Below are positions 1 through 40,236 of a DNA stretch of 40,236 nucleotides, in pieces. Source of the DNA: a virus. A program made the translations under genes and the position numbers. Location: positions 1 to 40,236 of the IMG/VR virus record IMGVR_UViG_3300037196_000123; one strand, given 5' to 3'. Positions within the stretch are counted from its first letter, which is position 1. Every line of letters starts with the position of its first letter. The notes beneath the pieces are model-generated. The model did no database searches and had not been told where the DNA came from. It saw only the letters and a list, made by a program, of their open reading frames with translations.

Positions 1-127
1 TACACCTGAGCGTAGGAGGCCTGGTCGAGACGGTCAACCATCATCGGGAGTTTGGACTCTAGAACTCCGTAGATGTTGGATACCTCAACAATCTTGGGAT
101 CTCCCTTGTCGTTCACACCAAAGCGAG
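1..127. repeat. terminal overlap, identical to 40110-40236 (circular contig closure or terminal redundancy)
   Basis: Direct comparison of the first and last 127 nt of the window gives the identical string tacacctgagcgtaggagg...cgttcacaccaaagcgag. Confidence 0.95.
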
Positions 128-1741: not shown

Positions 1742-4282
1742 CTACTTTGTGTTACCTCTCCAAGACGGAGGCATCACTTGACGCTTGGCCTTGTGGTTCT
1801 CCTTCTTCTTGGCAGCCACATATGTGAGGATCATTTTCTCCTGTGGGGAAGCAGCATCTATCTTCTCCTTGAGCTTCTCGTCCTCACTCTTCCGACGAGG
1901 ATTGAGCATTGACTTCAGCCCATACCGGCAATTGTGGACGAGCACTCCATTCACGAAGAATTCGTGTTCATCCTCAATTTCCAGGTCGTACACGTCCGCG
2001 AACCCCGCCTCCTGCAATTCGACTAACTGCACTGCATTGTCTACTACAGTGCTTGGTATCATCGAACTTGTCACTCCGAAACAACTTCCCACATACGATG
2101 CAAGATTTCTCAACATCGTCCAACCGTTGCTGCCTTCTCCACTTGGACTTGCAGTTGTTGGAGCAAAAGAGTTGAATACCTGTAGCGGCAAATTCTTTCT
2201 GACACTGCTTGCATGATTTGGTACTTCTAACTGGAACTCCAAAGGACTGGTTTCGAGCATGTTCGGAATGCCAGTTCCTGCCATCTGGAGAACCATGCCA
2301 CTTTCTAGCACCTTCCAACATTGCTTCAATCCATGCAGGCAAACCTCTGAGATGAGCTTCCTTGTCTGCTTGCCAATGATCTTTACAGGATAAACAATCG
2401 AGTTCATCAGGATCAACAGTCCACTTTGGTGAGTGGTCTTTGTGGTGAACATGAAATTTGGGAGGAATTGGTCCTCTATAGAATTCCCAGACATCACGGT
2501 GCAATGCGTGCCACTGAGGTCCTGTATAGTAACCACCGGGATAGTCGAGTTTGTATTTCTTTCCGTTGAAGATGACAAATTCTGGTTCCATGTAATTAGG
2601 TTCTCCCCATATCTAATACTATCCAGGGAGAAGAACCCGAAGTTAGTTGCAAATCTGTGATTCTGAGTACATGTTATCCTTCTACCATCACTGAGCACCG
2701 CTGTTACAACCTTCGCTCCTTCTCTGGTCTTCCAGGCATGAAGAACTCTACGCCATCCCTTACGAGTCATCACTCTCATTGACGATGCTACTTGTTCGAT
2801 AGGAACCTGACCATGATCAGTCATCACGGTAGTTCCTGCCACGAAGCAAGCATCATAACAATCGTCTTCCATCTGTGTGATGCCAAGATCCGACTTGAAG
2901 ACGTCGTCTAGATCCTTTGGGTTCCTCATGAGGACCGGAATGGTCTTCAGCAGTTCACTACACTCGGAAGAAATGAGCCAGACATCCTCAACTTGATCCT
3001 GCTCTTCGGCATCCAATCCGTGAAACTTCGTACCCTTGAGCAACTTGTCCATCAGGGCTGCTCCACCCTTGCGGTCGTTATCAGCCTTAGATGGATGAGG
3101 CATCCCCATCGGACGAGTTTCCTTGCCAATCTGTTGACCAATACAGTTCGGATCGTCTGTGCAGCATTCCGGAGACAGGAAGAAGTTCTTGTGCTTGGGC
3201 CTCTCAACAACAGGAGTGGACTCTACGATGAGTCGACCGATCTCTGAGCTCGTCTTCTCTGAGATGATCAGCTCTCTGTAGGTGACAACCACATTGATTG
3301 GTTTCTCTAATGTCCAGCCCAGATACTCGTGAACCTCTGACGGATTGAGAGTCGCACGATAGTTCCAGTACACCGCAGAGTAGTGAGTCTTGCCCCAGTC
3401 CATCGCCAGCCAGTGAGTTGCCCACGGCTTCCGCATCGCTTCGACTTTGTAGGACGGAAGTTGGACTGCTTCAAGATCCCAGGAATTGGCGAAGTACATT
3501 CCTTCAAGAGAATCCCAGTCTCCTTCCCAGTCTGCCTTGGCAATGACAGGATCCTTGCTCGCCAACTGCTTGGTGTACGGACCTCGCTCTGCTGAATACT
3601 TCTTCCGCTGATCATCCGTCCAACTGTAGTAATCCTGGACAGTGTATTTGTCTTCTTCCAGAGCATTCTGAACCCATATGTAGTTGTCCCAGGGATTCCA
3701 TCTCGTGAATGTGTAGTCAAGAGGATTCGGGACATCATGAAGATAGAACATCTTGCGATGGTCTTGAATAGATGAACCACGCATATTGAAAGACAGAATC
3801 AGCTTGGCCTGTTGCTTCTTCTTTCCCCAAGGAACACGAGCAGCATTCCTGATTTCTTCAATCTCTTTGAGAGTGAACTGCTCGGACTGATCTATCGCGA
3901 TGATGCTGTAGTTACCAGATCTGAAGTTTTCTTCTACGGATTTGTAGTCAGAGGCATATTTGAATTCGAGTCGGGATCCGTTTGGAAGTTTGAGAGTGGC
4001 AGGAGGGGAAGTTTTTAGATACTCATACGCAAGTTTTGGGAAATCCCGGGATATTGCCTCTAAATGAAAAGCAACAACTTGCTGAACCCAAGTCCGCATA
4101 ACCAAACAGCAGACCATTCCTGGGTTCTCATACATCAAAGCTATGAGTACCCGATCTACTCCCGATGACTTGGCAGATCCTCTCCCTCCCCCGATGCCGA
4201 CAACTGGGCACTTGCCATGTAGGAGTTCCTCGTACAGAGCTACCTGATTCGGAAGAAGGGAGATTTCCTGCTGTTTGGCCAT
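1742..4282 (-). CDS. terL: terminase large subunit precursor, interrupted by a 306-aa intein (spliced extein about 540 aa)
   Basis: Walker A-like VGIGGGRGSAKSS and Walker B-like YSIIAIDQSE are present. The C-terminal nuclease motif MEDDCYDA / CRYGL (DDxxDAxRY type) is split by the intein. TAATG overlap with the upstream gene. Confidence 0.85.
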   Translation of the reverse strand: MAKQQEISLLPNQVALYEELLHGKCPVVGIGGGRGSAKSSGVDRVLIALMYENPGMVCCLVMRTWVQQVVAFHLEAISRDFPKLAYEYLKTSPPATLKLPNGSRLEFKYASDYKSVEENFRSGNYSIIAIDQSEQFTLKEIEEIRNAARVPWGKKKQQAKLILSFNMRGSSIQDHRKMFYLHDVPNPLDYTFTRWNPWDNYIWVQNALEEDKYTVQDYYSWTDDQRKKYSAERGPYTKQLASKDPVIAKADWEGDWDSLEGMYFANSWDLEAVQLPSYKVEAMRKPWATHWLAMDWGKTHYSAVYWNYRATLNPSEVHEYLGWTLEKPINVVVTYRELIISEKTSSEIGRLIVESTPVVERPKHKNFFLSPECCTDDPNCIGQQIGKETRPMGMPHPSKADNDRKGGAALMDKLLKGTKFHGLDAEEQDQVEDVWLISSECSELLKTIPVLMRNPKDLDDVFKSDLGITQMEDDCYDACFVAGTTVMTDHGQVPIEQVASSMRVMTRKGWRRVLHAWKTREGAKVVTAVLSDGRRITCTQNHRFATNFGFFSLDSIRYGENLITWNQNLSSSTERNTNSTIPVVTIQDLSGTHCTVMSGNSIEDQFLPNFMFTTKTTHQSGLLILMNSIVYPVKIIGKQTRKLISEVCLHGLKQCWKVLESGMVLQMAGTGIPNMLETSPLEFQLEVPNHASSVRKNLPLQVFNSFAPTTASPSGEGSNGWTMLRNLASYVGSCFGVTSSMIPSTVVDNAVQLVELQEAGFADVYDLEIEDEHEFFVNGVLVHNCRYGLKSMLNPRRKSEDEKLKEKIDAASPQEKMILTYVAAKKKENHKAKRQVMPPSWRGNTK
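1931..2848 (-). mobile_element. intein in terL (residues 479-784 of the 846-aa ORF)
   Basis: Block A is CFVAGTTVMTDHG. Block B is DGRRITCTQNHRF (TxxH). Blocks F/G are VYDLEIEDEHEFFVNGVLVHN, followed by the +1 Cys (CRYGL). I checked codons TGC at 2848-2846, CAC AAT at 1936-1931 and TGC at 1930-1928 on the DNA. Confidence 0.85.
1974..2591 (-). CDS. HNH homing endonuclease, free-standing ORF nested inside the intein in a different frame
   Basis: 205-aa ORF offset by 1 nt from the terL frame. HNH_3-like core LHRDVWEFYRGPIPPKFHVHHKDHSPKWTVDPDELDCLSCKDH. Two CxxC...C..C zinc-ribbon-like units (CKQCQKEF..FCSNNCKSKW and CIVCGKLF..HCSRQCS). In-frame TAG 8 codons upstream of its ATG. GGGGAG lies 11 nt upstream. 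Confidence 0.75.
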   Translation of the reverse strand: MEPEFVIFNGKKYKLDYPGGYYTGPQWHALHRDVWEFYRGPIPPKFHVHHKDHSPKWTVDPDELDCLSCKDHWQADKEAHLRGLPAWIEAMLEGARKWHGSPDGRNWHSEHARNQSFGVPVRSTKSCKQCQKEFAATGIQLFCSNNCKSKWRRQQRLDDVEKSCIVCGKLFRSDKFDDTKHCSRQCSAVSRIAGGGVRGRVRPGN

Positions 4283-33042: not shown

Positions 33043-33230
33043 TCAGCCTCCCTCTTTCTCCTCAATTTCTGAGATTCCCTCATTTTGGATAGAATTTCAG
33101 GAGAAGGAGAAGGAAATTTTCTGCCAAGGTTTGGACCTTTGCAACCCAGCTTCTTCAAACGAATTCTTTCTTTTGTTTCCTGAGAATGAACGTAACCCTT
33201 ATGAAGAGGGTGCTCTCGGCAATTGTTCAT
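33033..33230 (-). CDS. stand-alone NUMOD3-repeat DNA-binding protein (65 aa)
   Basis: KGYVHSQETKERIRLKKLG and GRKFPSPSPEILSKMRES resemble tandem NUMOD3 motifs (G..HS.ETK.KIS). The ATG at 33230 forms an ATGA overlap with the upstream stop. Confidence 0.5.
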   Translation of the reverse strand: MNNCREHPLHKGYVHSQETKERIRLKKLGCKGPNLGRKFPSPSPEILSKMRESQKLRRKREAECR

Positions 33231-33733
33231 GGCTTCTCTACTGCAAAGTGACAAGATTCCACCAACTTAATGTCCCATACACTACAAAGGGTGAAAATCT
33301 CGTCACCAACCTTGATGTCTTCCGTGTTGAAAGCTCCGAAAACGACTAAATCTCCCACCTTAACCTGGTCACTCATAGGGAAACTCTTTCCTTCCCATAT
33401 GAATGTGGCCGCTGTAGCTACAACCACACCGCGATTTGGCGACTGCTGAGCAGACTCCGGTATGACAAATCGAGTGCCACCATAGACAGTCTCTTTTGCC
33501 ATTCGTCTAATCAAAACATGATTGAATATCGGCAACGGATCGTCGTACACTCTTTCAACCGTCTGAATTTTCCTACCGGAGTAAAGGCTCTCCAGTTCGT
33601 CCTTGGTGAACTCTGCCGGAGTGATGGCTTCAACAGCCTGATTTTCGGCCGCAGGATCTCCTGGAGCTTGCTGAGTTTCCTTGATTTTCCGACGGTCAAC
33701 AATTTCAAAGGGTCCGTTCTTACTGGTTGACAT
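33227..33733 (-). CDS. GroES/Cpn10-like co-chaperonin with a roughly 70-aa N-terminal extension
   Basis: The ATG at 33733 is preceded by AAGGAG. The C-terminal roughly 95 aa aligns by eye with GroES: FNHVLIRR..E....GG..IPESAQQSPNRGVVVA........VKVGDLVVF......I. Confidence 0.65.
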   Translation of the reverse strand: MSTSKNGPFEIVDRRKIKETQQAPGDPAAENQAVEAITPAEFTKDELESLYSGRKIQTVERVYDDPLPIFNHVLIRRMAKETVYGGTRFVIPESAQQSPNRGVVVATAATFIWEGKSFPMSDQVKVGDLVVFGAFNTEDIKVGDEIFTLCSVWDIKLVESCHFAVEKP

Positions 33734-33786
33734 TATGGTCTCCTTGATTACCCGTTCTGTGTTTCTGTTCGGTAGAAAGCTATCTC

Positions 33787-33844
33787 GACCAGACATGACT
33801 GCACCAGTCAGGACGTGGCAAGACGTGACTCGACTAGACCCGAC
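33787..33844 (-). promoter_or_regulatory. array A: 12 phased GTCNN pentamers on the sense strand
   Basis: Reads GTCGG GTCTA GTCGA GTCAC GTCTT GCCAC GTCCT GACTG GTGCA GTCAT GTCTG GTC from 33844 down to 33787. Confidence 0.9.
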
Positions 33845-33885: not shown

Positions 33886-35229
33886 TTAGATGGTGGGCTG
33901 AGACGCACCGTACACGAAGAGCTGGTGCTTAGGTGCGCTGCAGGCGAGGTTGAACGCTGCCTCATAGGCGAACTGGAATGCAGTCAACCAATCGTTGCTG
34001 GTACCAGGAACAGGGATGGAAGTCACGCCATCTCCGTACTGGTACAGCTGGAGAGGAATGAGCTCTCCAAGGTACCACTCATTCGTCAGGAGGAGGTCCA
34101 AGCGACCAGAAGGCTGAGCGTAGGAGAGGTGAGATTCGCGGCCACCGAAGGTACCCTGGAAATACTTGCGAGAAGTATCCGGAGTCTTCTTGTTGCCACC
34201 ACCACCCTCGTCAGAATTCTGGGTGATCTGCTTGTTGTAGTAGTTCGTGGTGCCGATGGCGACCGCCTGGTCCTCAGGAATGATGTAGATACCCGAGTCC
34301 TTGCTCTTGTTGTCTCCGCCCATCGCACGACCAAGCAATGCCTCGACGCGCAGTGAGAGAGAAGCTGTAATCGATCCACCGTTCAGGTTGATCGAAGGAG
34401 CAGTCACGCGGTTCGGATAGTCAGCGCGGTTGACACCAGCGATGGTACCAGTCGTGGAAGAGCTATTCCAGGCAGTGGTTCCGAAGACGCCCTGGTTGAG
34501 TGCGCCTGTGGATCCGGCAATCATGATGTAGTCGCCAACTGCAGTTGCGCCACCCAAGGAGGGTAGGGCAGTGCTGAAGAACACCGTGCTCGAGGCCGGA
34601 TCGGTCACAGAAACAGTCGCATTGCCACGACTGGATCCGCCTTCCGAGGGGAAGATCTGAACGATCTGGTTGTCGGTCAGGGCCATTGCGCGGATGCCAG
34701 TGATGTAGCTGGTGGCGTTACCCGAACCAGAACCGCTGGAAACCGTCGCGCCGGTGGGAATCTGGGTGATTGCACCCGAGCTATCCCCGTACATGATGCC
34801 CTCGAGGCCAGCCATTGCGGAGTCAAGAGAGTTCTTGAGCTCTTCGGCCTTCAGAGAGATGAGACCTCTCTTCTTATTGCCGGTGGCCGCCTGAGCGATG
34901 CGGGTCTGTTGGTTCGTGGCGTAGTGATACACAGGAGACAGAACGAAGTCAGCCCACTGCGATGCGTTACCAGATCCAAGGGAGTCACCGTTGCCAGTTC
35001 CCTGACCAATCGCGGATCCACCCTGGACACGGAACGGTACACGGAAAGAAGGCCGCGTGGTTCCTGATACCGAAGTACCAGCAAGAGTTGTGTGAGAAAT
35101 AGGAATGCTCGTAAAGCGATCCTTCGCCAACGAGAACAGAGTCGAACTCTGTGGAATAAGAGAGGGAATGGAGGTCGCGAACGATTCAAGTTCAACGGCC
35201 TGTACAGCAGATTCTGCGCCGACTGCCAT
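33886..35229 (-). CDS. major capsid protein
   Basis: 447-aa ORF directly after the scaffold region and followed by a strong terminator. GGGAGA SD. Call rests on size and position. I cannot verify the fold. Confidence 0.7.
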   Translation of the reverse strand: MAVGAESAVQAVELESFATSIPSLIPQSSTLFSLAKDRFTSIPISHTTLAGTSVSGTTRPSFRVPFRVQGGSAIGQGTGNGDSLGSGNASQWADFVLSPVYHYATNQQTRIAQAATGNKKRGLISLKAEELKNSLDSAMAGLEGIMYGDSSGAITQIPTGATVSSGSGSGNATSYITGIRAMALTDNQIVQIFPSEGGSSRGNATVSVTDPASSTVFFSTALPSLGGATAVGDYIMIAGSTGALNQGVFGTTAWNSSSTTGTIAGVNRADYPNRVTAPSINLNGGSITASLSLRVEALLGRAMGGDNKSKDSGIYIIPEDQAVAIGTTNYYNKQITQNSDEGGGGNKKTPDTSRKYFQGTFGGRESHLSYAQPSGRLDLLLTNEWYLGELIPLQLYQYGDGVTSIPVPGTSNDWLTAFQFAYEAAFNLACSAPKHQLFVYGASQPTI

Positions 35230-35352: not shown

Positions 35353-35493
35353 CTAATTAAGTCTCACTGGAGGTTTTGCACCCTCAGAACTGTTTCCTTG
35401 AATGTTCTTCAGCAACAACTTCTTACCTTTTCTAATTACTAGCTTATCACCCTTTTTCGATTTTGAATAGTTGTACCCTTCTTCTTTCAACAT
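35353..35493 (-). CDS. 46-aa basic micro-protein (tentative)
   Basis: MLKEEGYNYSKSKKGDKLVIRKGKKLLLKNIQGNSSEGAKPPVRLN. Weak SD. Its ATG lies inside the 3' strand of an 8-bp stem. Confidence 0.25.
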   Translation of the reverse strand: MLKEEGYNYSKSKKGDKLVIRKGKKLLLKNIQGNSSEGAKPPVRLN

Positions 35494-35544
35494 CGATAGT
35501 TGTCTCGTAAAGTTTGCACGAACGAAAATTGAAATGGATGTTGA

Positions 35545-35617
35545 CGCTCTACCAGCTGAGCTACATGATTTTCATCATGACGGGACTCGAACCCGTGACC
35601 TTCTGTACCCAGACAGA
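35545..35617 (-). ncRNA. circularly permuted tRNA-shaped element: anticodon-arm-like hairpin, variable loop, T-arm, GAAA-capped acceptor stem, D-arm
   Basis: Minus strand reads UCUGU CUGGGU ACAGA AGGUC ACGGG UUCGAGU CCCGU CAUGAU GAAA AUCAUG UA GCUC AGCUGGUA GAGC G. Canonical U8, A14, G15-C48, G18G19, G26-A44, G53-C61 and T54-A58 equivalents are all present. No encoded CCA and no free acceptor end. Confidence 0.7.
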
Positions 35618-35653
35618 TAACCCACTTCTAGCGGCTCGTGCTTCCATTCAATA

Positions 35654-36040
35654 CTACTGAGTTCCCTTACGTTCCACCATTCTGCTGGTAGGTTCCGTGA
35701 ATCCGACATCCGGAGAATTAAGGAAATCCACTTTCTCCTTTATTGTACCAGGCCAGCGAACCTGCGGATTAGAGAACCAAACTTTGTTGGGATCCCAAGT
35801 GATAAATCTGCCACTCTTGAGATAACCTTGTCCTCTGATAAGCATAAGATCTGCTTTATGATAGTGAAAATCCAGTTCACTATCGAGAGGACGACGATGA
35901 AACCACTGCAGATAAAGTTCTCTGATTAGACCTCTAAGTTTCGGAGGTTTGACCCTCTGGTTCTGACGATCCCAGTACTCGTCATACGAAATGGTTTTAT
36001 CCAAGTTGTTTCTTCTTCCACTTGCATTTTGTTTGAACAT
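35654..36040 (-). CDS. hypothetical head-module protein sharing a C-terminal motif with the scaffold protein
   Basis: AAGGAG SD. LDSELDFHYHKADLMLIRGQGYLKSGRFITW compares with EDSAIDWTRPRAEIMFIEGRGYLKGSGRYVQW in the scaffold protein. Confidence 0.6.
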   Translation of the reverse strand: MFKQNASGRRNNLDKTISYDEYWDRQNQRVKPPKLRGLIRELYLQWFHRRPLDSELDFHYHKADLMLIRGQGYLKSGRFITWDPNKVWFSNPQVRWPGTIKEKVDFLNSPDVGFTEPTSRMVERKGTQ

Positions 36041-36055
36041 GATGGTCTCCTTGAC

Positions 36056-37369
36056 TTACTGAACTGCCGGCTTCACCCATTGAACATATCTTCCCGATCC
36101 CTTCAGGTATCCGCGTCCCTCGATGAACATGATTTCGGCCCTGGGACGGGTCCAATCAATGGCGGAGTCTTCTGGTTTCTGACTGACGTAGATCGGTCCG
36201 CCACCAACAGCAGTCTTAGGAGATCCAGCCTTGACTACACCAGTCCCCTGCTGTTGACCAGGAATGGTTCCCTTCGGTGCACCATAGATGTTCTTGGCGA
36301 CTTCGAAAGCCTTGGCTGCCATCCGACGATTGAACTCCCCAGCAGTGTAGGCAGCGATACTGTCAGCAGACCGCTTGGGATTGTCGTAACGGAGTTTGAC
36401 TTGACGCATGTAGTTCTGGTCTGCCTTCATTTCTGCAACGACAGCACTCTGCAAACTACTCTTGTAGTGCTCCTTCTGCGTGTCGTTCAGCTTGTAGGCT
36501 TTGGCATACTTGTCGACAATCGGAGTGGTACCAGTCTCGATCTGTTTGTTCACCCGTTCGTTGACTCCAGTGGTGAACAAATTTTCTTTCTCCTGATTGA
36601 ATGCTTCACGATCTTTGGCCAGACGCTCAGCACCGGGATCCTTCTGGCTTCTCGTCTGACGAAGCTGCTGGACATTCTGAGACTGACCGGCAAGCCAGTT
36701 ATATGCTTCGATTGCTAACTGCTTGGCCTGAGCAGGATCGGTAGCATTGGCGATCTTCGCCAAATGATCACCAAGTCCAGCACCTACCAGCATGTTGACT
36801 GCATACGGAGCGATGGCTGCCTGTAGTGCCTGAGGATTCGATGCTCCCAGTTTCTCTAGATAAGGAGTGACGAGCGCAGCTGCTCCTTCGGGGAAGTCCT
36901 TGAAGAAACCATCTAGAACCTCCGGATTGCCTTGCTCAAGATTCAGCTCCTGTGTATCGAAGTCGGAGATTCTCTGCTGCAGGGTTGCTGCACCTTCAGA
37001 TCCACCGATGGCCTCGATGAGTTGCTTCGCTTGTGTGGCCTCCGCCGGTGTGGGAAAAGCACTCTTGTAAGCAGACTCAACACGGAAGTGTGAATCAGCC
37101 ATCTGCTTCAGGATCTTGGCGTCTTCGGGATGCTCCTGAGACAAGCGATTGACTGCCTCACGGATTTGCTTGCCGGATAGAGGACTGACTTTGTCACCAC
37201 CACCACCAGATCCGGTATCTACTCCGGAGTCTACCCCACTTTCGGAAACGTCTGTACCCTCTCCGGTATCGACCTCCGTTGATTCAGTTGTAGATGTATC
37301 AACGGATTCAGACCCAGTGTCAAGACTACCCGGATCGATGGAACCTAGATCAACTGCTGATGTTGCCAT
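36056..37369 (-). CDS. putative scaffolding protein
   Basis: 437 aa with an acidic Ser/Thr/Asp/Gly-rich N-terminus and a long helical Ala/Gln/Lys-rich body. It lies between the portal and capsid genes. Confidence 0.55.
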   Translation of the reverse strand: MATSAVDLGSIDPGSLDTGSESVDTSTTESTEVDTGEGTDVSESGVDSGVDTGSGGGGDKVSPLSGKQIREAVNRLSQEHPEDAKILKQMADSHFRVESAYKSAFPTPAEATQAKQLIEAIGGSEGAATLQQRISDFDTQELNLEQGNPEVLDGFFKDFPEGAAALVTPYLEKLGASNPQALQAAIAPYAVNMLVGAGLGDHLAKIANATDPAQAKQLAIEAYNWLAGQSQNVQQLRQTRSQKDPGAERLAKDREAFNQEKENLFTTGVNERVNKQIETGTTPIVDKYAKAYKLNDTQKEHYKSSLQSAVVAEMKADQNYMRQVKLRYDNPKRSADSIAAYTAGEFNRRMAAKAFEVAKNIYGAPKGTIPGQQQGTGVVKAGSPKTAVGGGPIYVSQKPEDSAIDWTRPRAEIMFIEGRGYLKGSGRYVQWVKPAVQ

Positions 37370-37736: not shown

Positions 37737-38351
37737 CTAACTTCCGCCGAAGGCAGCCTCTTCAACATCACCGAACACAGGAACAACCTCGTGATGGTCC
37801 CCATCCCAGTAGATTTCAGCAATTCCACCGGGTTTCACTGAATCACCAAACTCTGGCTCGATGTTGTGAGCACCTTCAGTCAGGTTTACCAGCGCAGTGA
37901 CATTGCTGGTGTGAGCTACATATAGTGTAACTCCCACCTTCCTGGCCTGAACCAGTGCTGCTCCCCAGAAAGCAAATTGACGATCCTCGAAATCAGAGAG
38001 ACATTCACCTTCAGGGATGCAAACATCAGGACTGTGAACAAACAACCTTAAAGCCTCGTTATGCAAGGATTTGTCTAATCCTGTGAAGACTCCGAGTCTC
38101 CAAGGGAAGAGTCCTCTTGACTGATACACAAAGTTCTTTTGGCAGCAGATATCTGCCGTCACGAACGCTCTGAGTAAGGGTGAGGATATCACCTGCTTAA
38201 TCTGGTATCTCTTCAAAAACTCATTCGCAGCAGCAGCTTGTTTCTTACCCTTGGCATTCAGAGGAGGATCGCTCCACGAACGGAACTTGTTATCCGCATT
38301 GACTGCGGTTTCTCCGTGCCGGAGGACAATTCCAACAAGTTTCTTGGCCAT
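37737..38351 (-). CDS. histidine phosphatase superfamily (PGAM-like) protein
   Basis: RHG motif VLRHGETAVN, then SSPLLRAFVTA, GECLSDFEDR and YVAHTSNV. Together these supply the catalytic R-H-R-E-H set. TAATG coupling to the portal stop. Confidence 0.75.
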   Translation of the reverse strand: MAKKLVGIVLRHGETAVNADNKFRSWSDPPLNAKGKKQAAAANEFLKRYQIKQVISSPLLRAFVTADICCQKNFVYQSRGLFPWRLGVFTGLDKSLHNEALRLFVHSPDVCIPEGECLSDFEDRQFAFWGAALVQARKVGVTLYVAHTSNVTALVNLTEGAHNIEPEFGDSVKPGGIAEIYWDGDHHEVVPVFGDVEEAAFGGS

Positions 38352-40236
38352 TACAGCTTCCTAGTAGTTCTCGTCTTGATTTCAGCCATCGGATTTCTCC
38401 TGATGGTTTCTTGAGTTTGTTCACTCGGTTCAGGCTTGGGAGGAGATACCTGAATCCCAGCCATACCCAAGAGTTCCGAGATGGTATTCGGATCCAACTT
38501 GCCGCTGAGACTGACCTTCGGGGCAGCTGGAACAGGTTTGGCGAACTTTTCAGCAAGCTCCTTGTTTGCCTTCCAATAGAGCAAAATGTTTGTAAACTTG
38601 GCCCAATTCTGCTTCATCTTAGGATCGGGATTGTTGCCATCTTCTTTTGCCGCAGCTCTGCGAATCTTCCTGAATTCGGGTTTCTGCATGAAGCTGAACA
38701 AAGTAGCAGTGATGGTGGCATAGTCGACACTCTGGTCATCTGGAACTTCTACTGAAGGAAGATACTGAGGAGTCCCATCCAGCTGCTTCTTGACCTCACC
38801 AACTTTTTGCTCCAGTTGCTGACCTTGCTCGGTATCTTCCGGATGAAGTCTTCCCTCTTGAGCAGCCTGAGTTGCCAGCTGCTTGGCCTGTTCATGAACC
38901 TCGCTCATTTCCCGATACTGGCGGTTCAATTCGTGCCACTGTGGATTTTCAAGAGGCTCGGACTCTAGAAGGATTTCAACAGTCTCCATGGCTCCATCTT
39001 CCGAATCAGCTTCATCAACCGTGATGACGTCATCCATGTGCAGCCCATTGATGATCTCACGAGCATTGCTCGGAGTTCCCACGATGGACTGAATCTGTTG
39101 ACTCGAATTTGCCATTTCGAGGATCTGCAATATCTTGGCTTCACGTTGGGCACCCGACTCTGGGATTCCATTAATCGTCTCCGCCTTGCACTTGAAGTTA
39201 CCCTTGAGATTCTCAGGATTGACAGTGATATCACCATATTCCGAAGAGTTGCTGGAGATCTCCGTATTTCCGTTGTCTGCACAGCATCTGACGGCCTGTG
39301 AGCACGCTTCGGCAAACATCTTGTTGGATACTAGCCATGCAGTTCCGATGCGCTCCAAAGCCTGCTGAAGACGGATCTGTGTTGCACCAACCGTGTTGTC
39401 TGCTCCTTCACCGCCTCCAAACAACGCTGGTGTTCCTCCGTCAATGGACTGGATGAGTGGTCCTAGATACCACTGCAGCATTTCACTGAATCCCGGAATC
39501 GGTTGAGGAGTGGGAGTCTGTCCCACGATGGATTGCATCGTCTGCTGGTTCGCTGTATCGAGTGCTACTTCAACGAATCTTGTAGTGCTGGCTTCTAGCT
39601 TCGACATTGCCTCAGCATCGAATGCTTCCGACTCCAGCAGTCCGATCGGAATAGATCCTCTGACATACTTGTCCCAAAGATCCGCCCAGATGTTGATCCT
39701 CTTCTGAATCGGGATATCAGACGATCCAAGAGCGCGGCGATCCTGTCCAAATCCTCTAGAGTACATTCCCATAGACAAGTGGTCGTCCATTGATTCCGTC
39801 CAGCAACAGACGAATTCAGGTCCAGCCATGACAATGAAGATGCCCTTTGAGAACTCTTTGAGGAAGAACTCACGCTGACTTGCCTTCACCTTATCGTCGT
39901 AGAAGATACCAACACGATACCAGGTGTAACCCATAGTGCATTCACGGACACCTGCTGTACCTGTAATGTAACGACCCATCATACCAAGGCGAGTGTTGAT
40001 ACGAGCAATACGCTCAAACTCCAGTTCACCCGCTGTGCCCCACGACGGCTTGATCTTGTTACCCATCCACGGATATGCTGCACGTGCGATGGCATAGTCA
40101 ACTTCTTCGTACACCTGAGCGTAGGAGGCCTGGTCGAGACGGTCAACCATCATCGGGAGTTTGGACTCTAGAACTCCGTAGATGTTGGATACCTCAACAA
40201 TCTTGGGATCTCCCTTGTCGTTCACACCAAAGCGAG
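38351..40236 (-). CDS. portal protein, C-terminal part (continues from 755..1 through the junction)
   Basis: The 624-aa track ORF begins at a GTG that is an internal Val codon of the longer frame. See the feature at 1..755. Confidence 0.7.
   Translation of the reverse strand, partial: RFGVNDKGDPKIVEVSNIYGVLESKLPMMVDRLDQASYAQVYEEVDYAIARAAYPWMGNKIKPSWGTAGELEFERIARINTRLGMMGRYITGTAGVRECTMGYTWYRVGIFYDDKVKASQREFFLKEFSKGIFIVMAGPEFVCCWTESMDDHLSMGMYSRGFGQDRRALGSSDIPIQKRINIWADLWDKYVRGSIPIGLLESEAFDAEAMSKLEASTTRFVEVALDTANQQTMQSIVGQTPTPQPIPGFSEMLQWYLGPLIQSIDGGTPALFGGGEGADNTVGATQIRLQQALERIGTAWLVSNKMFAEACSQAVRCCADNGNTEISSNSSEYGDITVNPENLKGNFKCKAETINGIPESGAQREAKILQILEMANSSQQIQSIVGTPSNAREIINGLHMDDVITVDEADSEDGAMETVEILLESEPLENPQWHELNRQYREMSEVHEQAKQLATQAAQEGRLHPEDTEQGQQLEQKVGEVKKQLDGTPQYLPSVEVPDDQSVDYATITATLFSFMQKPEFRKIRRAAAKEDGNNPDPKMKQNWAKFTNILLYWKANKELAEKFAKPVPAAPKVSLSGKLDPNTISELLGMAGIQVSPPKPEPSEQTQETIRRNPMAEIKTRTTRKL
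40110..40236. repeat. terminal overlap, identical to 1-127
   Basis: Direct comparison. Confidence 0.95.

What the first reader, a model, noticed from the sequence alone, without database searches (positions are those of the whole stretch)
35545..35617. Circularly permuted, acceptor-capped tRNA mimic between the scaffold and capsid genes
A 424-nt gap lies between ORF 35654..36040 and the capsid gene. In it the minus strand carries all four tRNA arms in the order anticodon-arm-like hairpin (UCUGU/ACAGA with a non-canonical 6-nt loop CUGGGU), variable loop AGGUC, T-arm ACGGG-UUCGAGU-CCCGU, a 6-bp acceptor helix CAUGAU/AUCAUG closed by a GAAA tetraloop, UA, D-arm GCUC-AGCUGGUA-GAGC, and G. This is a cloverleaf permuted at position 26/27. 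The tertiary-interaction positions are all canonical (U8-A14, G15-C48, G18G19 with the T-loop, G26-A44, A9/U12-A23, G53-C61). There is no free 5' or 3' acceptor end, no CCA, and a 6-nt anticodon loop, so it should fold into an L-shape but cannot be charged or decode. The topology recalls bacterial Y-RNA-like (YrlA) tRNA mimics and permuted tRNA genes of some algae. It is unexpected in the middle of a phage head operon. Possible roles: a decoy or sponge for tRNA-targeting defence nucleases or tRNA-binding enzymes; an RNase P/Z punctuation site that separates scaffold and capsid mRNAs; or a Y-RNA-like adaptor.
Basis: partly seen in the sequence, partly recalled or inferred. Interest (0 to 1): 0.85.

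Follow-up and report, generated by a model that had tools for sequence, protein, structure and literature searches.

The report
Phage-encoded YrlA-like tRNA mimic
Just upstream of its capsid gene, a small phage carries a roughly 126-base RNA gene of the known YrlA ("bacterial Y RNA") type, whose core folds like a tRNA with a sealed acceptor end; the only unusual point is that the phage has no gene for Ro60, the protein that normally partners this RNA.

Summary
The sequence is exactly as described at 35617..35545 (minus strand) and is well beyond chance. It is the only Rfam match in the whole genome (YrlA RF02553, 44.7 bits, E 6.9e-7).

It is not a new class. It is the tRNA-like module of a YrlA-type Y RNA, which the literature already describes as a "circularly permuted tRNA with a closed acceptor stem".

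The flanks pair into a long bulged stem, giving a 126-nt RNA (35641..35516; MFE z = -3.66). The "anticodon-like" hairpin sits where YrlA has its V stem-loop, after the conserved YUAY motif.

The window is a complete circular 40.1-kb phage genome with no Ro60/TROVE gene, so this is an orphan copy.

It lies in an accessory cassette at an insertion hot spot between the scaffold-like and capsid genes:
- 31 more distant relatives lack it.
- One sister phage keeps it, with a remodelled but still perfect acceptor helix (7 bp + GCAA versus 6 bp + GAAA) and a tRNA-Trp gene next to it.
- Another sister has lost the acceptor and D arms through a 39-nt deletion.

Verdict: a new, Ro60-less member of a known kind. 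Function is inferred only.

The parts
35516..35641 (-). Whole predicted YrlA-like RNA (126 nt): terminal stem, V hairpin, T arm, closed acceptor, D arm
   Evidence: MFE equals the centroid structure, -43.8 kcal/mol, z -3.66, 0 of 200 shuffles. The same fold appears in larger contexts. The sister allele L179 folds identically.
35634..35641 (-). Stem 1, 5' strand GCACGAGC; pairs with 35523-35516
   Evidence: All 8 pairs are kept in 4 alleles, with one G-C to G-U change.
35629..35633 (-). Internal loop, 5' side CGCUA, opposite 35530-35524. The 5 x 7 geometry is like the 5 x 8 loop of the Rfam YrlA consensus.
   Evidence: consensus structure line.
35620..35628 (-). Stem 2, 5' strand GAAGUGGGU; pairs with 35539-35531
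   Evidence: All 9 pairs are invariant in 4 alleles. Flank duplex is -25.4 kcal/mol against -15.6 +/- 3.1 for shuffles, 7 of 1000 as good.
35617..35620 (-). UUAU, matching the YUAY motif that begins the V region in most YrlA RNAs
   Evidence: Sequence. Motif defined in Chen et al. 2014. GGUUAY recurs in TROVE-linked and bacterial YrlAs.
35602..35617 (-).
   Evidence: Equivalent 4-5-bp hairpins with other sequences occur in L121, L164, L161, L159 and L156. Not significant on its own. MFE prefers a shifted 8-bp register that uses AGGU.
35597..35601 (-). Variable-loop equivalent AGGUC (C = Levitt partner of G15)
   Evidence: NGGUC recurs in family members.
35580..35596 (-). T arm ACGGG-UUCGAGU-CCCGU
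   Evidence: Aligned to YrlA model positions 31-47. A-U becomes G-U in L179.
35564..35579 (-). Closed acceptor stem (AS) CAUGAU-GAAA-AUCAUG: 6 bp plus a GNRA tetraloop
   Evidence: The L179 allele is CAUGACA-GCAA-UGUCAUG: 7 bp plus GNRA, with one pair changed on both sides.
35562..35563 (-). UA linker (U8 A9 equivalents), conserved in YrlA
35546..35561 (-). D arm GCUC-AGCUGGUA-GAGC
   Evidence: Identical in L179. Deleted in L181/L182.
35540..35545 (-). Unpaired linker GUCAAC between the D arm and stem 2; variable (UUUCAU in L179)
35531..35539 (-). Stem 2, 3' strand AUCCAUUUC
35516..35523 (-). Stem 1, 3' strand GUUCGUGC
35654..36040 (-). Lineage-specific 128-aa ORF, left part of the inserted cassette. 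Residues 46-82 repeat the C-terminal motif of the scaffold-like protein.
   Evidence: Found only in this phage lineage. 99% nt identity to L179, against 93.6% for the scaffold gene.
35353..35493 (-). 46-aa ORF of doubtful reality, the variable right part of the cassette. L179 has tRNA-Trp(CCA) at this position; L181 has unrelated sequence.
   Evidence: Called in L135 but not in L136. No family hit. L179 tRNA-Trp.
36056..37369 (-). Conserved scaffold-like gene (437 aa), the true upstream neighbour in relatives
   Evidence: 38-56% identity in all relatives, ending just upstream of the capsid gene there.
33886..35229 (-). Putative major capsid gene (447 aa), downstream neighbour
   Evidence: Weak capsid_maj_Podo hit. 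Conserved at 61-76% in 31 relatives.

Best explanation
The 73-nt motif is the tRNA-like module of a roughly 126-nt non-coding RNA of the YrlA class (bacterial Y-RNA-like tRNA mimics), at window 35641..35516 on the minus strand.

Shown:
- The order is terminal stem 1, a 5x7 internal loop, stem 2, UUAU, V hairpin, AGGUC, T arm, a 6-bp acceptor helix sealed by GAAA, UA, D arm, and a linker back to the stem.
- It sits in an accessory cassette inserted between the scaffold-like gene and the capsid gene of a complete circular 40.1-kb phage genome that has no Ro60/TROVE gene.

Inferred:
- It is transcribed with the late head genes, as YrlA is co-transcribed within the rsr operon, and trimmed out of the transcript.
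- It folds into a tRNA L-shape whose T/D elbow is the working surface. It cannot be aminoacylated or decode.
- It acts in trans on host proteins that recognise YrlA or tRNA elbows. The most likely partner is a host Ro60/Rsr-PNPase type RNA-decay or repair particle; otherwise another tRNA-binding factor.
- It is a dispensable, exchangeable accessory ('moron') function rather than part of head assembly.
For: Match to the family:
- YrlA is the only Rfam hit in the genome (44.7 bits, E 6.9e-7).
- That score is at the top of the range for phage YrlAs that sit next to TROVE genes (33-44 bits) and within the range for bacterial ones (38-50 bits).
- The stem / 5xN loop / stem / YUAY geometry matches the Rfam consensus.
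- The UA linker, the pyrimidine at the end of the variable loop, the Levitt pair and the 6-bp AS match the crystallised S. Typhimurium YrlA.

Stability:
- Fold z = -3.66. Flank duplex 7 of 1000 shuffles.
- Flank complementarity is enriched across 29 closed-acceptor elements compared with adjacent-tRNA controls (mean z -1.16 vs 0.05).

Comparison with sister allele L179 (93% nt identity):
- It keeps every helix.
- It changes 3 of 74 paired positions, all pair-preserving, against 10 of 52 unpaired positions (Fisher p 0.008).
- Its AS is remodelled to 7 bp + GCAA.

Genome context:
- The genome is complete (127-nt terminal overlap).
- No TROVE by Pfam, tblastn or HMM.
Against: - No expression data of any kind.
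- No consensus promoter or terminator flanks the element.
- The strict GNCGAAN0-1G Ro60 motif is absent.
- There is no Ro60 in the phage, and the host is unknown.
- The score is below Rfam's gathering threshold.
- Sister allele L181/L182 has lost the AS and D arm through a 39-nt deletion, so the tRNA-like domain is not essential.
- 31 relatives by capsid lack the element.
- Covariation rests on two informative alleles and has no statistical power by the tool's shuffles (239 of 500). The AS change may be a single complex event.
- The V hairpin is not significant by itself.
Confidence: 0.7

Rival explanations
1. It is a cis-acting element of the late head mRNA. A very stable tRNA-shaped structure in the long leader of the capsid gene would act as a processing site or a nuclease barrier, separating or stabilising the scaffold and capsid messages. 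It would not be a trans-acting RNA.
For: - It lies inside an operon with no promoter or terminator of its own.
- It begins 13 nt after the stop codon of the upstream ORF.
- Relatives have a long conserved capsid leader at this position.
- In L179 a real tRNA follows it, so RNase P/Z cuts are expected nearby.
- The L179 allele has a 7-bp AS, the length at which M. smegmatis YrlA is cut by RNase P.
Against: - 31 relatives express the same genes without it.
- The deletion allele shows it is not needed for capsid expression.
- The window's 6-bp closed AS is the type that RNase P does not cleave.
- Retention of every tRNA tertiary nucleotide and of the YrlA-specific T and D stem sequences exceeds what a simple barrier needs.
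Confidence: 0.15
2. It is a decoy or sponge for host factors that bind or cut tRNAs (defence nucleases, modification or repair enzymes, RtcR-type sensors), working without Ro60.
For: - There is no Ro60 gene and no strict Ro60 motif.
- It travels with phage tRNA genes: tRNA-Trp in L179, and similar elements sit inside phage tRNA arrays.
- Erwinia jumbo phage AH06 has such an element, RtcB and an RNA 2'-phosphotransferase, and no detectable TROVE.
Against: - The hairpin loop has 6 nt and no anticodon-loop signature, so it is a poor mimic for anticodon nucleases.
- No partner has been identified.
- TROVE-linked phage YrlAs also lack the strict motif, so its absence does not show independence from Ro60.
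Confidence: 0.15
3. It is a non-functional relic of two adjacent tRNA genes (T arm of the first, D arm of the second) that happens to look like YrlA and is decaying.
For: - Its T arm is identical to a phage tRNA-Asp-type T arm and its D arm to that of the next tRNA in real dimers (L134; Erwinia phage tRNA-Asp|tRNA-Ile).
- Dimeric tRNAs are a known false positive, and the proposed evolutionary origin, of YrlA.
- One sister allele has deleted half of it.
- A tRNA gene is adjacent in L179.
Against: - The spacer is a perfect 6-bp helix with a GNRA tetraloop. In L179 it is a different perfect 7-bp helix with another GNRA loop.
- The flanks form 17 conserved pairs.
- Substitutions avoid or preserve the stems.
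- No remnant of the outer tRNA halves is detectable.
- Closed spacers of at least 5 bp occur in about 17 of 128 pattern hits, against about 1 expected by chance.
Confidence: 0.08
4. It is a true circularly permuted tRNA gene that is processed into a functional tRNA.
For: The 3'-half-before-5'-half order is as in the permuted tRNA genes of some algae (from general knowledge; also noted).
Against: - The acceptor strands are joined by only 4 nt, with no leader, trailer or CCA.
- The would-be anticodon loop has 6 nt.
- The chain is open at position 26/27, and no bulge-helix-bulge motif is apparent there.
- Bacteria lack the splicing endonuclease/ligase route used for permuted tRNAs (general knowledge).
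- ARAGORN finds nothing.
Confidence: 0.01

Closest known systems
YrlA (Y RNA-like A; Rfam RF02553) of S. Typhimurium, M. smegmatis, many bacteria and Ro60-encoding phages (Chen et al. 2014, PMC4201824; Wang et al. 2018, bioRxiv 10.1101/312249)
   Same: - T arm, closed acceptor stem-loop, UA, D arm, in that order.
- The same near-invariant T and D stem sequences.
- All tRNA tertiary nucleotides.
- The YUAY motif and V stem-loop.
- Ends paired into a long bulged stem with a 5xN internal loop.
- A 6-bp AS, as in Salmonella.
- Embedded in an operon without its own promoter.
   Different: - No Ro60/TROVE gene anywhere in the complete phage genome. The published sets were defined by lying within 4 kb of Ro60.
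- The strict GNCGAAN0-1G motif is absent.
- A 6-nt linker separates the D arm from the stem.
- The score is below Rfam's gathering threshold, though so are the TROVE-linked phage and bacterial copies examined here.
- It is located in a head-gene cassette next to (in a sister phage) a tRNA gene.
YrlB and D. radiodurans Yrn1 (other bacterial Y RNAs)
   Same: - A terminal stem plus a T-arm-containing effector module.
- The deletion allele L181/L182 (stem, V hairpin and a weakened T hairpin only) resembles this reduced layout.
- Yrn1 has a 5-bp, 6-nt-loop 'anticodon arm'.
   Different: Yrn1 has the opposite T/D orientation and a well-conserved Ro60-binding helix. No D arm or closed acceptor is needed in YrlB.
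Dimeric (adjacent) tRNA genes in phage tRNA arrays
   Same: A T arm of one tRNA followed closely by the D arm of the next. The arm sequences are identical to real tRNA-Asp / tRNA-Ile or Gly type arms. This is the proposed evolutionary source of YrlA.
   Different: Here the spacer is a sealed helix. There are no complete flanking tRNA halves, and the outer sequences pair with each other instead.
Circularly permuted tRNA genes (Cyanidioschyzon merolae and others), tmRNA tRNA-like domain, plant-virus TLS
   Same: tRNA-shaped RNAs with non-standard topology. All share the T/D elbow.
   Different: Those have, or regain, a free CCA end and are aminoacylated. This element cannot be.

Membership tests
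YrlA (RF02553) | Near-invariant T and D stem-loops in the order T then D | tested here: met
   Aligned to model positions 24-84 with posterior about 1.0. T stem CGGG/CCCG and D stem GCUC/GAGC are as in family members.
YrlA (RF02553) | [quoted passage not shown] | tested here: met
   6 bp + GAAA, then UA. Kept as 7 bp + GCAA in L179.
YrlA (RF02553) | tRNA tertiary-interaction nucleotides: U8/A14, Levitt 15-48, G18G19, T54/A58, pyrimidine at the end of the variable loop | tested here: met
   Read directly from the sequence. Criteria taken.
YrlA (RF02553) | YUAY motif opening the V region; optional V stem-loop upstream of T | tested here: met
   UUAU at 35620-35617, followed by a 5-bp hairpin. 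The hairpin alone is not significant.
YrlA (RF02553) | 5' and 3' ends pair into a long stem with an internal loop (Ro60-binding module) | tested here: met
   8 bp, 5x7 loop, 9 bp. All 17 pairs kept in 4 alleles. Consensus geometry is 6 bp, 5x8, 7 bp. This is a prediction only.
YrlA (RF02553) | GNCGAAN0-1G motif in the 5' strand (putative Ro60 contact) | tested here: not met
   No exact match within 90 nt upstream; by eye, CACGAG (35640-35635) matches 3 of the 5 specified positions. Five phage YrlAs adjacent to TROVE genes also lack an exact match, so this is weak evidence against.
YrlA (RF02553) | Encoded within about 4 kb of, and on the same strand as, a Ro60/TROVE gene | tested here: not met
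   The genome is complete and circular. No TROVE by Pfam on all large ORFs, by tblastn with 4 phage TROVE/DUF2828 proteins, or by HMM on all ORFs of at least 150 aa.
YrlA (RF02553) | Score at or above Rfam's gathering threshold (69 bits) | tested here: not met
   44.7 bits. TROVE-linked phage copies score 33-44 bits and bacterial copies 38-50 bits, so the threshold is too strict outside the seed taxa.
YrlA (RF02553) | Bound by Ro60/Rsr; carries pseudouridine-55 and dihydrouridine | not testable with these tools
   Needs immunoprecipitation and modification mapping.
Canonical tRNA | Free paired 5'/3' acceptor ends and a 7-nt anticodon loop | tested here: not met
   ARAGORN finds 0 genes. The acceptor is sealed by GAAA and the hairpin loop has 6 nt.
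Permuted tRNA genes (algal/archaeal type) | The two halves can be re-joined and trimmed to give a standard tRNA | tested here: not met
   Only 4 nt lie between the acceptor strands, there is no CCA or trailer, and the loop has 6 nt. A bulge-helix-bulge motif was not searched for formally.
tmRNA | tRNA-like domain plus mRNA-like tag region | tested here: not met
   Only the T arm matches: 10.5 bits against a gathering score of 47.

The most novel reading that the evidence does not exclude
Stand-alone YrlA-type tRNA mimics may be a mobile accessory RNA of phages that travels with phage tRNA genes and works without a phage Ro60. It would either capture the host's Ro60/PNPase particle or titrate tRNA-elbow-binding defence or repair factors. 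That would give Y-RNA-like tRNA mimics a role in phage-host conflict that does not depend on a linked Ro60 gene.
Probability: 0.3. Interest if true: 0.65.

Novelty: new member of a known kind. Interest (0 to 1): 0.4.

Why it matters
YrlA RNAs were defined by their linkage to Ro60, and their effector is still unknown. A structurally intact copy in a complete 40-kb phage genome that has no Ro60 separates the RNA from its usual partner gene. The copy is exchanged as a cassette alongside tRNA genes. One sister phage has a remodelled allele and another has a deletion allele, which amounts to a natural allelic series.

If the RNA is expressed, it points either to phage hijacking of host Ro60 particles or to a Ro60-independent job for the tRNA elbow mimic.

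Two practical points also follow:
- Rfam's YrlA threshold (69 bits) missed every phage and bacterial copy examined here, including those next to TROVE genes.
- A cultivable jumbo phage, Erwinia phage AH06, carries an unannotated element of the same build and could serve as a test system.

Tried and rejected
- **Standard RNA scans.** ARAGORN and Rfam at gathering thresholds found nothing. Only the E-value mode exposed YrlA.
- **Close DNA relatives.** Megablast against isolated phages found no match.
- **Protein families.** PHROGs, Pfam, NCBIfam and PDB sequence searches of the neighbouring proteins were mostly empty.
- **Orthologous copies via the capsid protein.** 13 viral and 18 metagenomic relatives were found, none with the element. 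There were no relatives in genome contigs.
- **Specific DNA pattern in viral contigs.** It hit only a true tRNA dimer, L134.
- **Shuffle test of the V hairpin.** Not significant. A first version of that script was wrong and an earlier regex was mis-registered.
- **RNAalifold on the conserved capsid leader.** No consensus structure.
- **Promoter and terminator scan.** Nothing convincing on the minus strand around the element.
- **Direct repeats flanking the insertion.** None.
- **Possible mini-TROVE in AH06.** A weak tblastn hit of AH06_219 to the N-terminus of the L061 protein turned out to be a P-loop region, not TROVE.
- **Literature.** The Ro60/Y RNA review PMC10870794 is not held.
- **Host identification.** Failed. 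The only hint is a scaffold homologue labelled as coming from a Pseudacidobacterium MAG.
Full report

Yes.
- UCUGU-CUGGGU-ACAGA, 35617-35602
- AGGUC
- ACGGG-UUCGAGU-CCCGU
- CAUGAU-GAAA-AUCAUG
- UA
- GCUC-AGCUGGUA-GAGC
- G, 35545

In tRNA numbering, U8/A14, G15/C48, G18G19, U54/A58, G53-C61, A9 with U12-A23, and G26/A44 are all in place by direct reading.

ARAGORN finds no tRNA in the window, and no Rfam family reaches its gathering score. With E-value reporting, the YrlA model (RF02553, "Y RNA-like") matches 35603..35543 on the minus strand at 44.7 bits, model positions 24-84 of 114. The E-value is 8.6e-9 for the local stretch and 6.9e-7 for the whole window on both strands. It is the only match with E<=1 among 4227 families. 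The motif is therefore far beyond chance, and it has a name.

**2.

The flanks are complementary:
- GCACGAGC (35641-35634) pairs with GUUCGUGC (35523-35516).
- GAAGUGGGU (35628-35620) pairs with AUCCAUUUC (35539-35531).
- A 5 x 7 internal loop separates the two stems.

The 126-nt RNA (35641..35516) has identical MFE and centroid structures at -43.8 kcal/mol, z = -3.66, and none of 200 dinucleotide shuffles is as stable. The flank duplex alone is -25.4 kcal/mol, against -15.6 +/- 3.1 for shuffles, with 7 of 1000 as good.

The Rfam YrlA consensus has the same layout: a 6-bp stem, a 5 x 8 internal loop, a 7-bp stem, CUAc, the T arm, a closed stem-loop, UA, and the D arm.

Chen et al. 2014 define YrlA by these features:
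- an intervening "AS" stem-loop
- a less conserved "V" stem-loop upstream of T, whose loop begins with a conserved YUAY
- a 5' GNCGAAN0-1G motif
- a position within 4 kb of Ro60

The window has UUAU (35620-35617) directly before the hairpin.

Wang et al. 2018 solved the Salmonella module. [quoted passage not shown] They note a 6-bp AS in Salmonella, the conserved UA linker, the pyrimidine at the end of the variable loop, and the Levitt pair. All of these are present here.

**3. How good is the family assignment, given a score below threshold?**

I collected independent copies.

A pattern scan of viral contigs returned mostly adjacent tRNA genes. About 17 of 128 matches had a spacer closed by at least 5 pairs, where about 1 is expected by chance. 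Most of these fold with a flanking terminal stem.

Five of them (L121, L036, L061, L117, L102) lie next to TROVE / Ro60-vWA genes, so they are genuine phage YrlAs. They score only 33-44 bits on RF02553, and none has an exact GNCGAA motif.

Bacterial copies with the same T and D arms score 38-50 bits. One of these is in Kitasatospora, next to a TROVE gene.

So 44.7 bits and the missing strict motif are normal for real YrlAs outside the seed taxa.

Across 29 closed-acceptor elements, flank complementarity is enriched relative to adjacent-tRNA controls: mean z of -1.16 against 0.05, with 10 of 29 versus 3 of 40 below -2.

Several members (L121, L164, L161, L159, L156) have, after GGUUAY, a 4-5-bp hairpin with a 7-nt CU...AA loop followed by NGGUC. 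Taken alone, however, the window's hairpin is not significant (70 of 300 shuffles), and the MFE prefers a shifted 8-bp register.

**4. Genomic setting**

The window is a complete circular phage genome. Its first 127 nt are identical to its last 127 nt, giving 40,109 bp at 50% GC. It encodes:
- a large terminase with an intein
- a small terminase
- a DnaB-like helicase and a primase-like protein
- a GroES-like protein
- a histidine phosphatase

There is no TROVE/Ro60 by Pfam on all large ORFs, by tblastn with four phage TROVE/DUF2828 proteins, or by an HMM on all ORFs of at least 150 aa.

The true conserved upstream gene is the 437-aa scaffold-like protein (36056-37369). In all relatives this gene ends just before the capsid gene. 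It repeats the scaffold C-terminal motif at residues 46-82 and has no homologues outside this phage lineage.

The element therefore belongs to an inserted cassette of about 0.7 kb. The site is a hot spot:
- 31 relatives by capsid (61-76% aa identity, and one at 41%) lack the element.
- Some carry small ORFs there.
- L004, L012 and L013 carry a MUG113/T5orf172 gene.
- L153 carries a genuine tRNA-Pro.

No consensus promoter or terminator flanks the element. By eye, TGGTACAAT at 35750-35742 resembles the TGTGnTATGAT motif that follows the scaffold gene in relatives. This is inference only.

**5. Comparative test in sister phages**

Exact-protein look-ups recovered three alleles in phages 92-93% identical to the window.

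*(a) The window allele.* It is identical in contigs from at least three samples.

*(b) L179.* Stems 1 and 2, the V hairpin and the D arm are identical. Other differences:
- The first T-stem pair changes from A-U to G-U.
- The acceptor helix is CAUGACA-GCAA-UGUCAUG (7 bp + GNRA) instead of CAUGAU-GAAA-AUCAUG (6 bp + GNRA). That is one pair changed on both sides plus one added pair.
- G26 becomes U.
- The linker and the internal loop differ.
- It folds into the same architecture.
- Between the two alleles, 3 of 74 paired positions differ, all pair-preserving, against 10 of 52 unpaired positions (Fisher p = 0.008).

Two cautions apply. The AS change may be a single complex event, and the tool's own shuffle control has no power with so few sequences (239 of 500).

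In L179 a genuine tRNA-Trp(CCA) follows 24 nt downstream, where the window has a doubtful 46-aa ORF.

*(c) L181/L182.* A 39-nt deletion removes the end of the T stem, the whole acceptor helix, UA, the D arm and GUC. The terminal stems and the V hairpin remain.

The cassette's left part is more conserved than the flanking genes. The 128-aa ORF is 99.0% identical to L179 and the 5' half of the element 97.3%, against 93.6% for the scaffold gene. The 3' half of the element is only 83.6% identical. This suggests recent exchange of the cassette and a variable right end.

Taken together, two lineages show structure-preserving evolution and one shows loss. That is the behaviour of a functional but dispensable accessory gene.

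**6. Mechanism**

Shown: the anatomy, the family resemblance, the orphan status, and the cassette behaviour.

Inferred:
- The RNA is co-transcribed with the late head genes, as YrlA is within the rsr operon, and trimmed to a stable RNA of about 126 nt.
- The L-shaped T/D elbow is the effector surface.
- With a sealed 6-bp acceptor it should not be an RNase P substrate. Salmonella YrlA is not cleaved; the 7-bp M. smegmatis one is.
- It cannot be charged.

I consider the most likely mode of action to be in trans on host factors. The first candidate is a host Ro60/Rsr-PNPase particle bound through the terminal stem. Otherwise it acts on tRNA-elbow-binding proteins.

Rivals, each with lower weight, are:
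- a cis-acting processing or stability element of the capsid leader
- a Ro60-independent decoy
- a decaying tRNA-dimer relic
- a true permuted tRNA (effectively excluded)

**7. Novelty and score**

The RNA is a new member of a known family, not a new class. What is new is the context:
- a complete small phage without Ro60
- a position in the capsid-gene leader cassette
- linkage to a tRNA gene in a sister phage
- a natural allelic series

A similar unannotated element (37.3 bits) exists in the cultivable Erwinia jumbo phage AH06. That phage has no detectable TROVE and no tRNAs, but it does have RtcB and an RNA 2'-phosphotransferase. TROVE genes occur in 124 of 50,697 phage records.

Noticed in passing
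window 1-127 and 40110-40236: An exact 127-nt terminal overlap shows that the window is a complete circular assembly of about 40,109 bp (50.4% GC). All large ORFs are on the minus strand.
   Followed up: yes
window 1742-4282 (minus): The large terminase gene carries an intein (Intein_splicing and Hint_2 domains in residues about 479-784).
   Followed up: no
window 35309-35304, about 35279-35274, and 35243-35237 (minus); L001-L011 about 3905-4000: The capsid 5' leader keeps three conserved blocks in most of the relatives aligned (L005 and L009 are divergent): (G/A)UUCUCC, GAGACC, and the Shine-Dalgarno GGAGAA. UUCUCC is complementary to the SD, which suggests SD sequestration. RNAalifold on a gappy alignment gave no consensus structure.
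   Followed up: partly
gap upstream of the capsid gene: L153 1167-1241; L179 2722-2798; L004 3322-3858 (also L012, L013): The scaffold-capsid gap is an insertion hot spot in this phage group. It holds tRNA-Pro in L153, tRNA-Trp in L179, a MUG113/T5orf172 (GIY-YIG-like) gene in L004, L012 and L013, and small ORFs in others.
   Followed up: yes
window 35654-36040 (minus), residues 46-82: The lineage-specific 128-aa ORF contains a copy of the scaffold C-terminal motif (RGxGYLKxGxxxxW). It is 99% identical between sister phages whose flanking genes differ by about 7%. This looks like a recombination scar of a recently exchanged cassette.
   Followed up: partly
L042, L049, L090, L096, L100, L104, L131, L132; MAG contigs L159, L161: Closed-acceptor YrlA-like elements sit inside or at the end of large phage-type tRNA arrays, some of which also hold tmRNA. 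None reaches the Rfam YrlA gathering score of 69, and neither do copies next to TROVE genes (33-50 bits). The threshold misses much of the family.
   Followed up: partly
L172 3998-4062 = MZ501268.1 about 171419-171483: Erwinia jumbo phage AH06 has an unannotated YrlA-like element (AS UAGCCU-GAAA-AGGCUA; 37.3 bits). Its genome shows no TROVE by tblastn or HMM and no tRNA by ARAGORN. It does encode RtcB (AH06_49) and an RNA 2'-phosphotransferase (AH06_91).
   Followed up: partly
L104 1199-2935; also L033, L105, L118: A DUF2828 + DUF7788 protein lies immediately downstream of a YrlA-like element in L104, and homologues occur at three further loci from the T-arm/D-arm pattern scan. It may be a Ro60-analogous partner. 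Its relationship to TROVE was not tested.
   Followed up: no
L121, L164, L161, L159, L156 (table): In several YrlAs the V stem-loop is a 4-5-bp stem with a 7-nt CU...AA loop followed by a 5-nt NGGUC. This is an anticodon arm plus variable loop in all but name, and it fits the proposed origin from tRNA dimers.
   Followed up: partly
window 35544-35534 and 35497-35487 (minus): UCAACAUCCAU, just 3' of the D arm, is 10 of 11 complementary to AUCGAUGUUGA, which covers the AUG of the 46-aa ORF. This alternative helix competes with stem 2. It may well be chance.
   Followed up: no
window 37737-38351 and 33227-33796 (minus): A histidine-phosphatase (His_Phos_1) gene and a GroES-like (Cpn10) gene with an extra N-terminal region are conserved members of the head-gene module in all relatives. 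Their role is unknown.
   Followed up: no
window 35750-35742 (minus): TGGTACAAT resembles the extended -10-like TGTGnTAT(G/A)AT motif that follows the scaffold gene in relatives. It could start a transcript about 95 nt upstream of the RNA. This was read by eye only.
   Followed up: no
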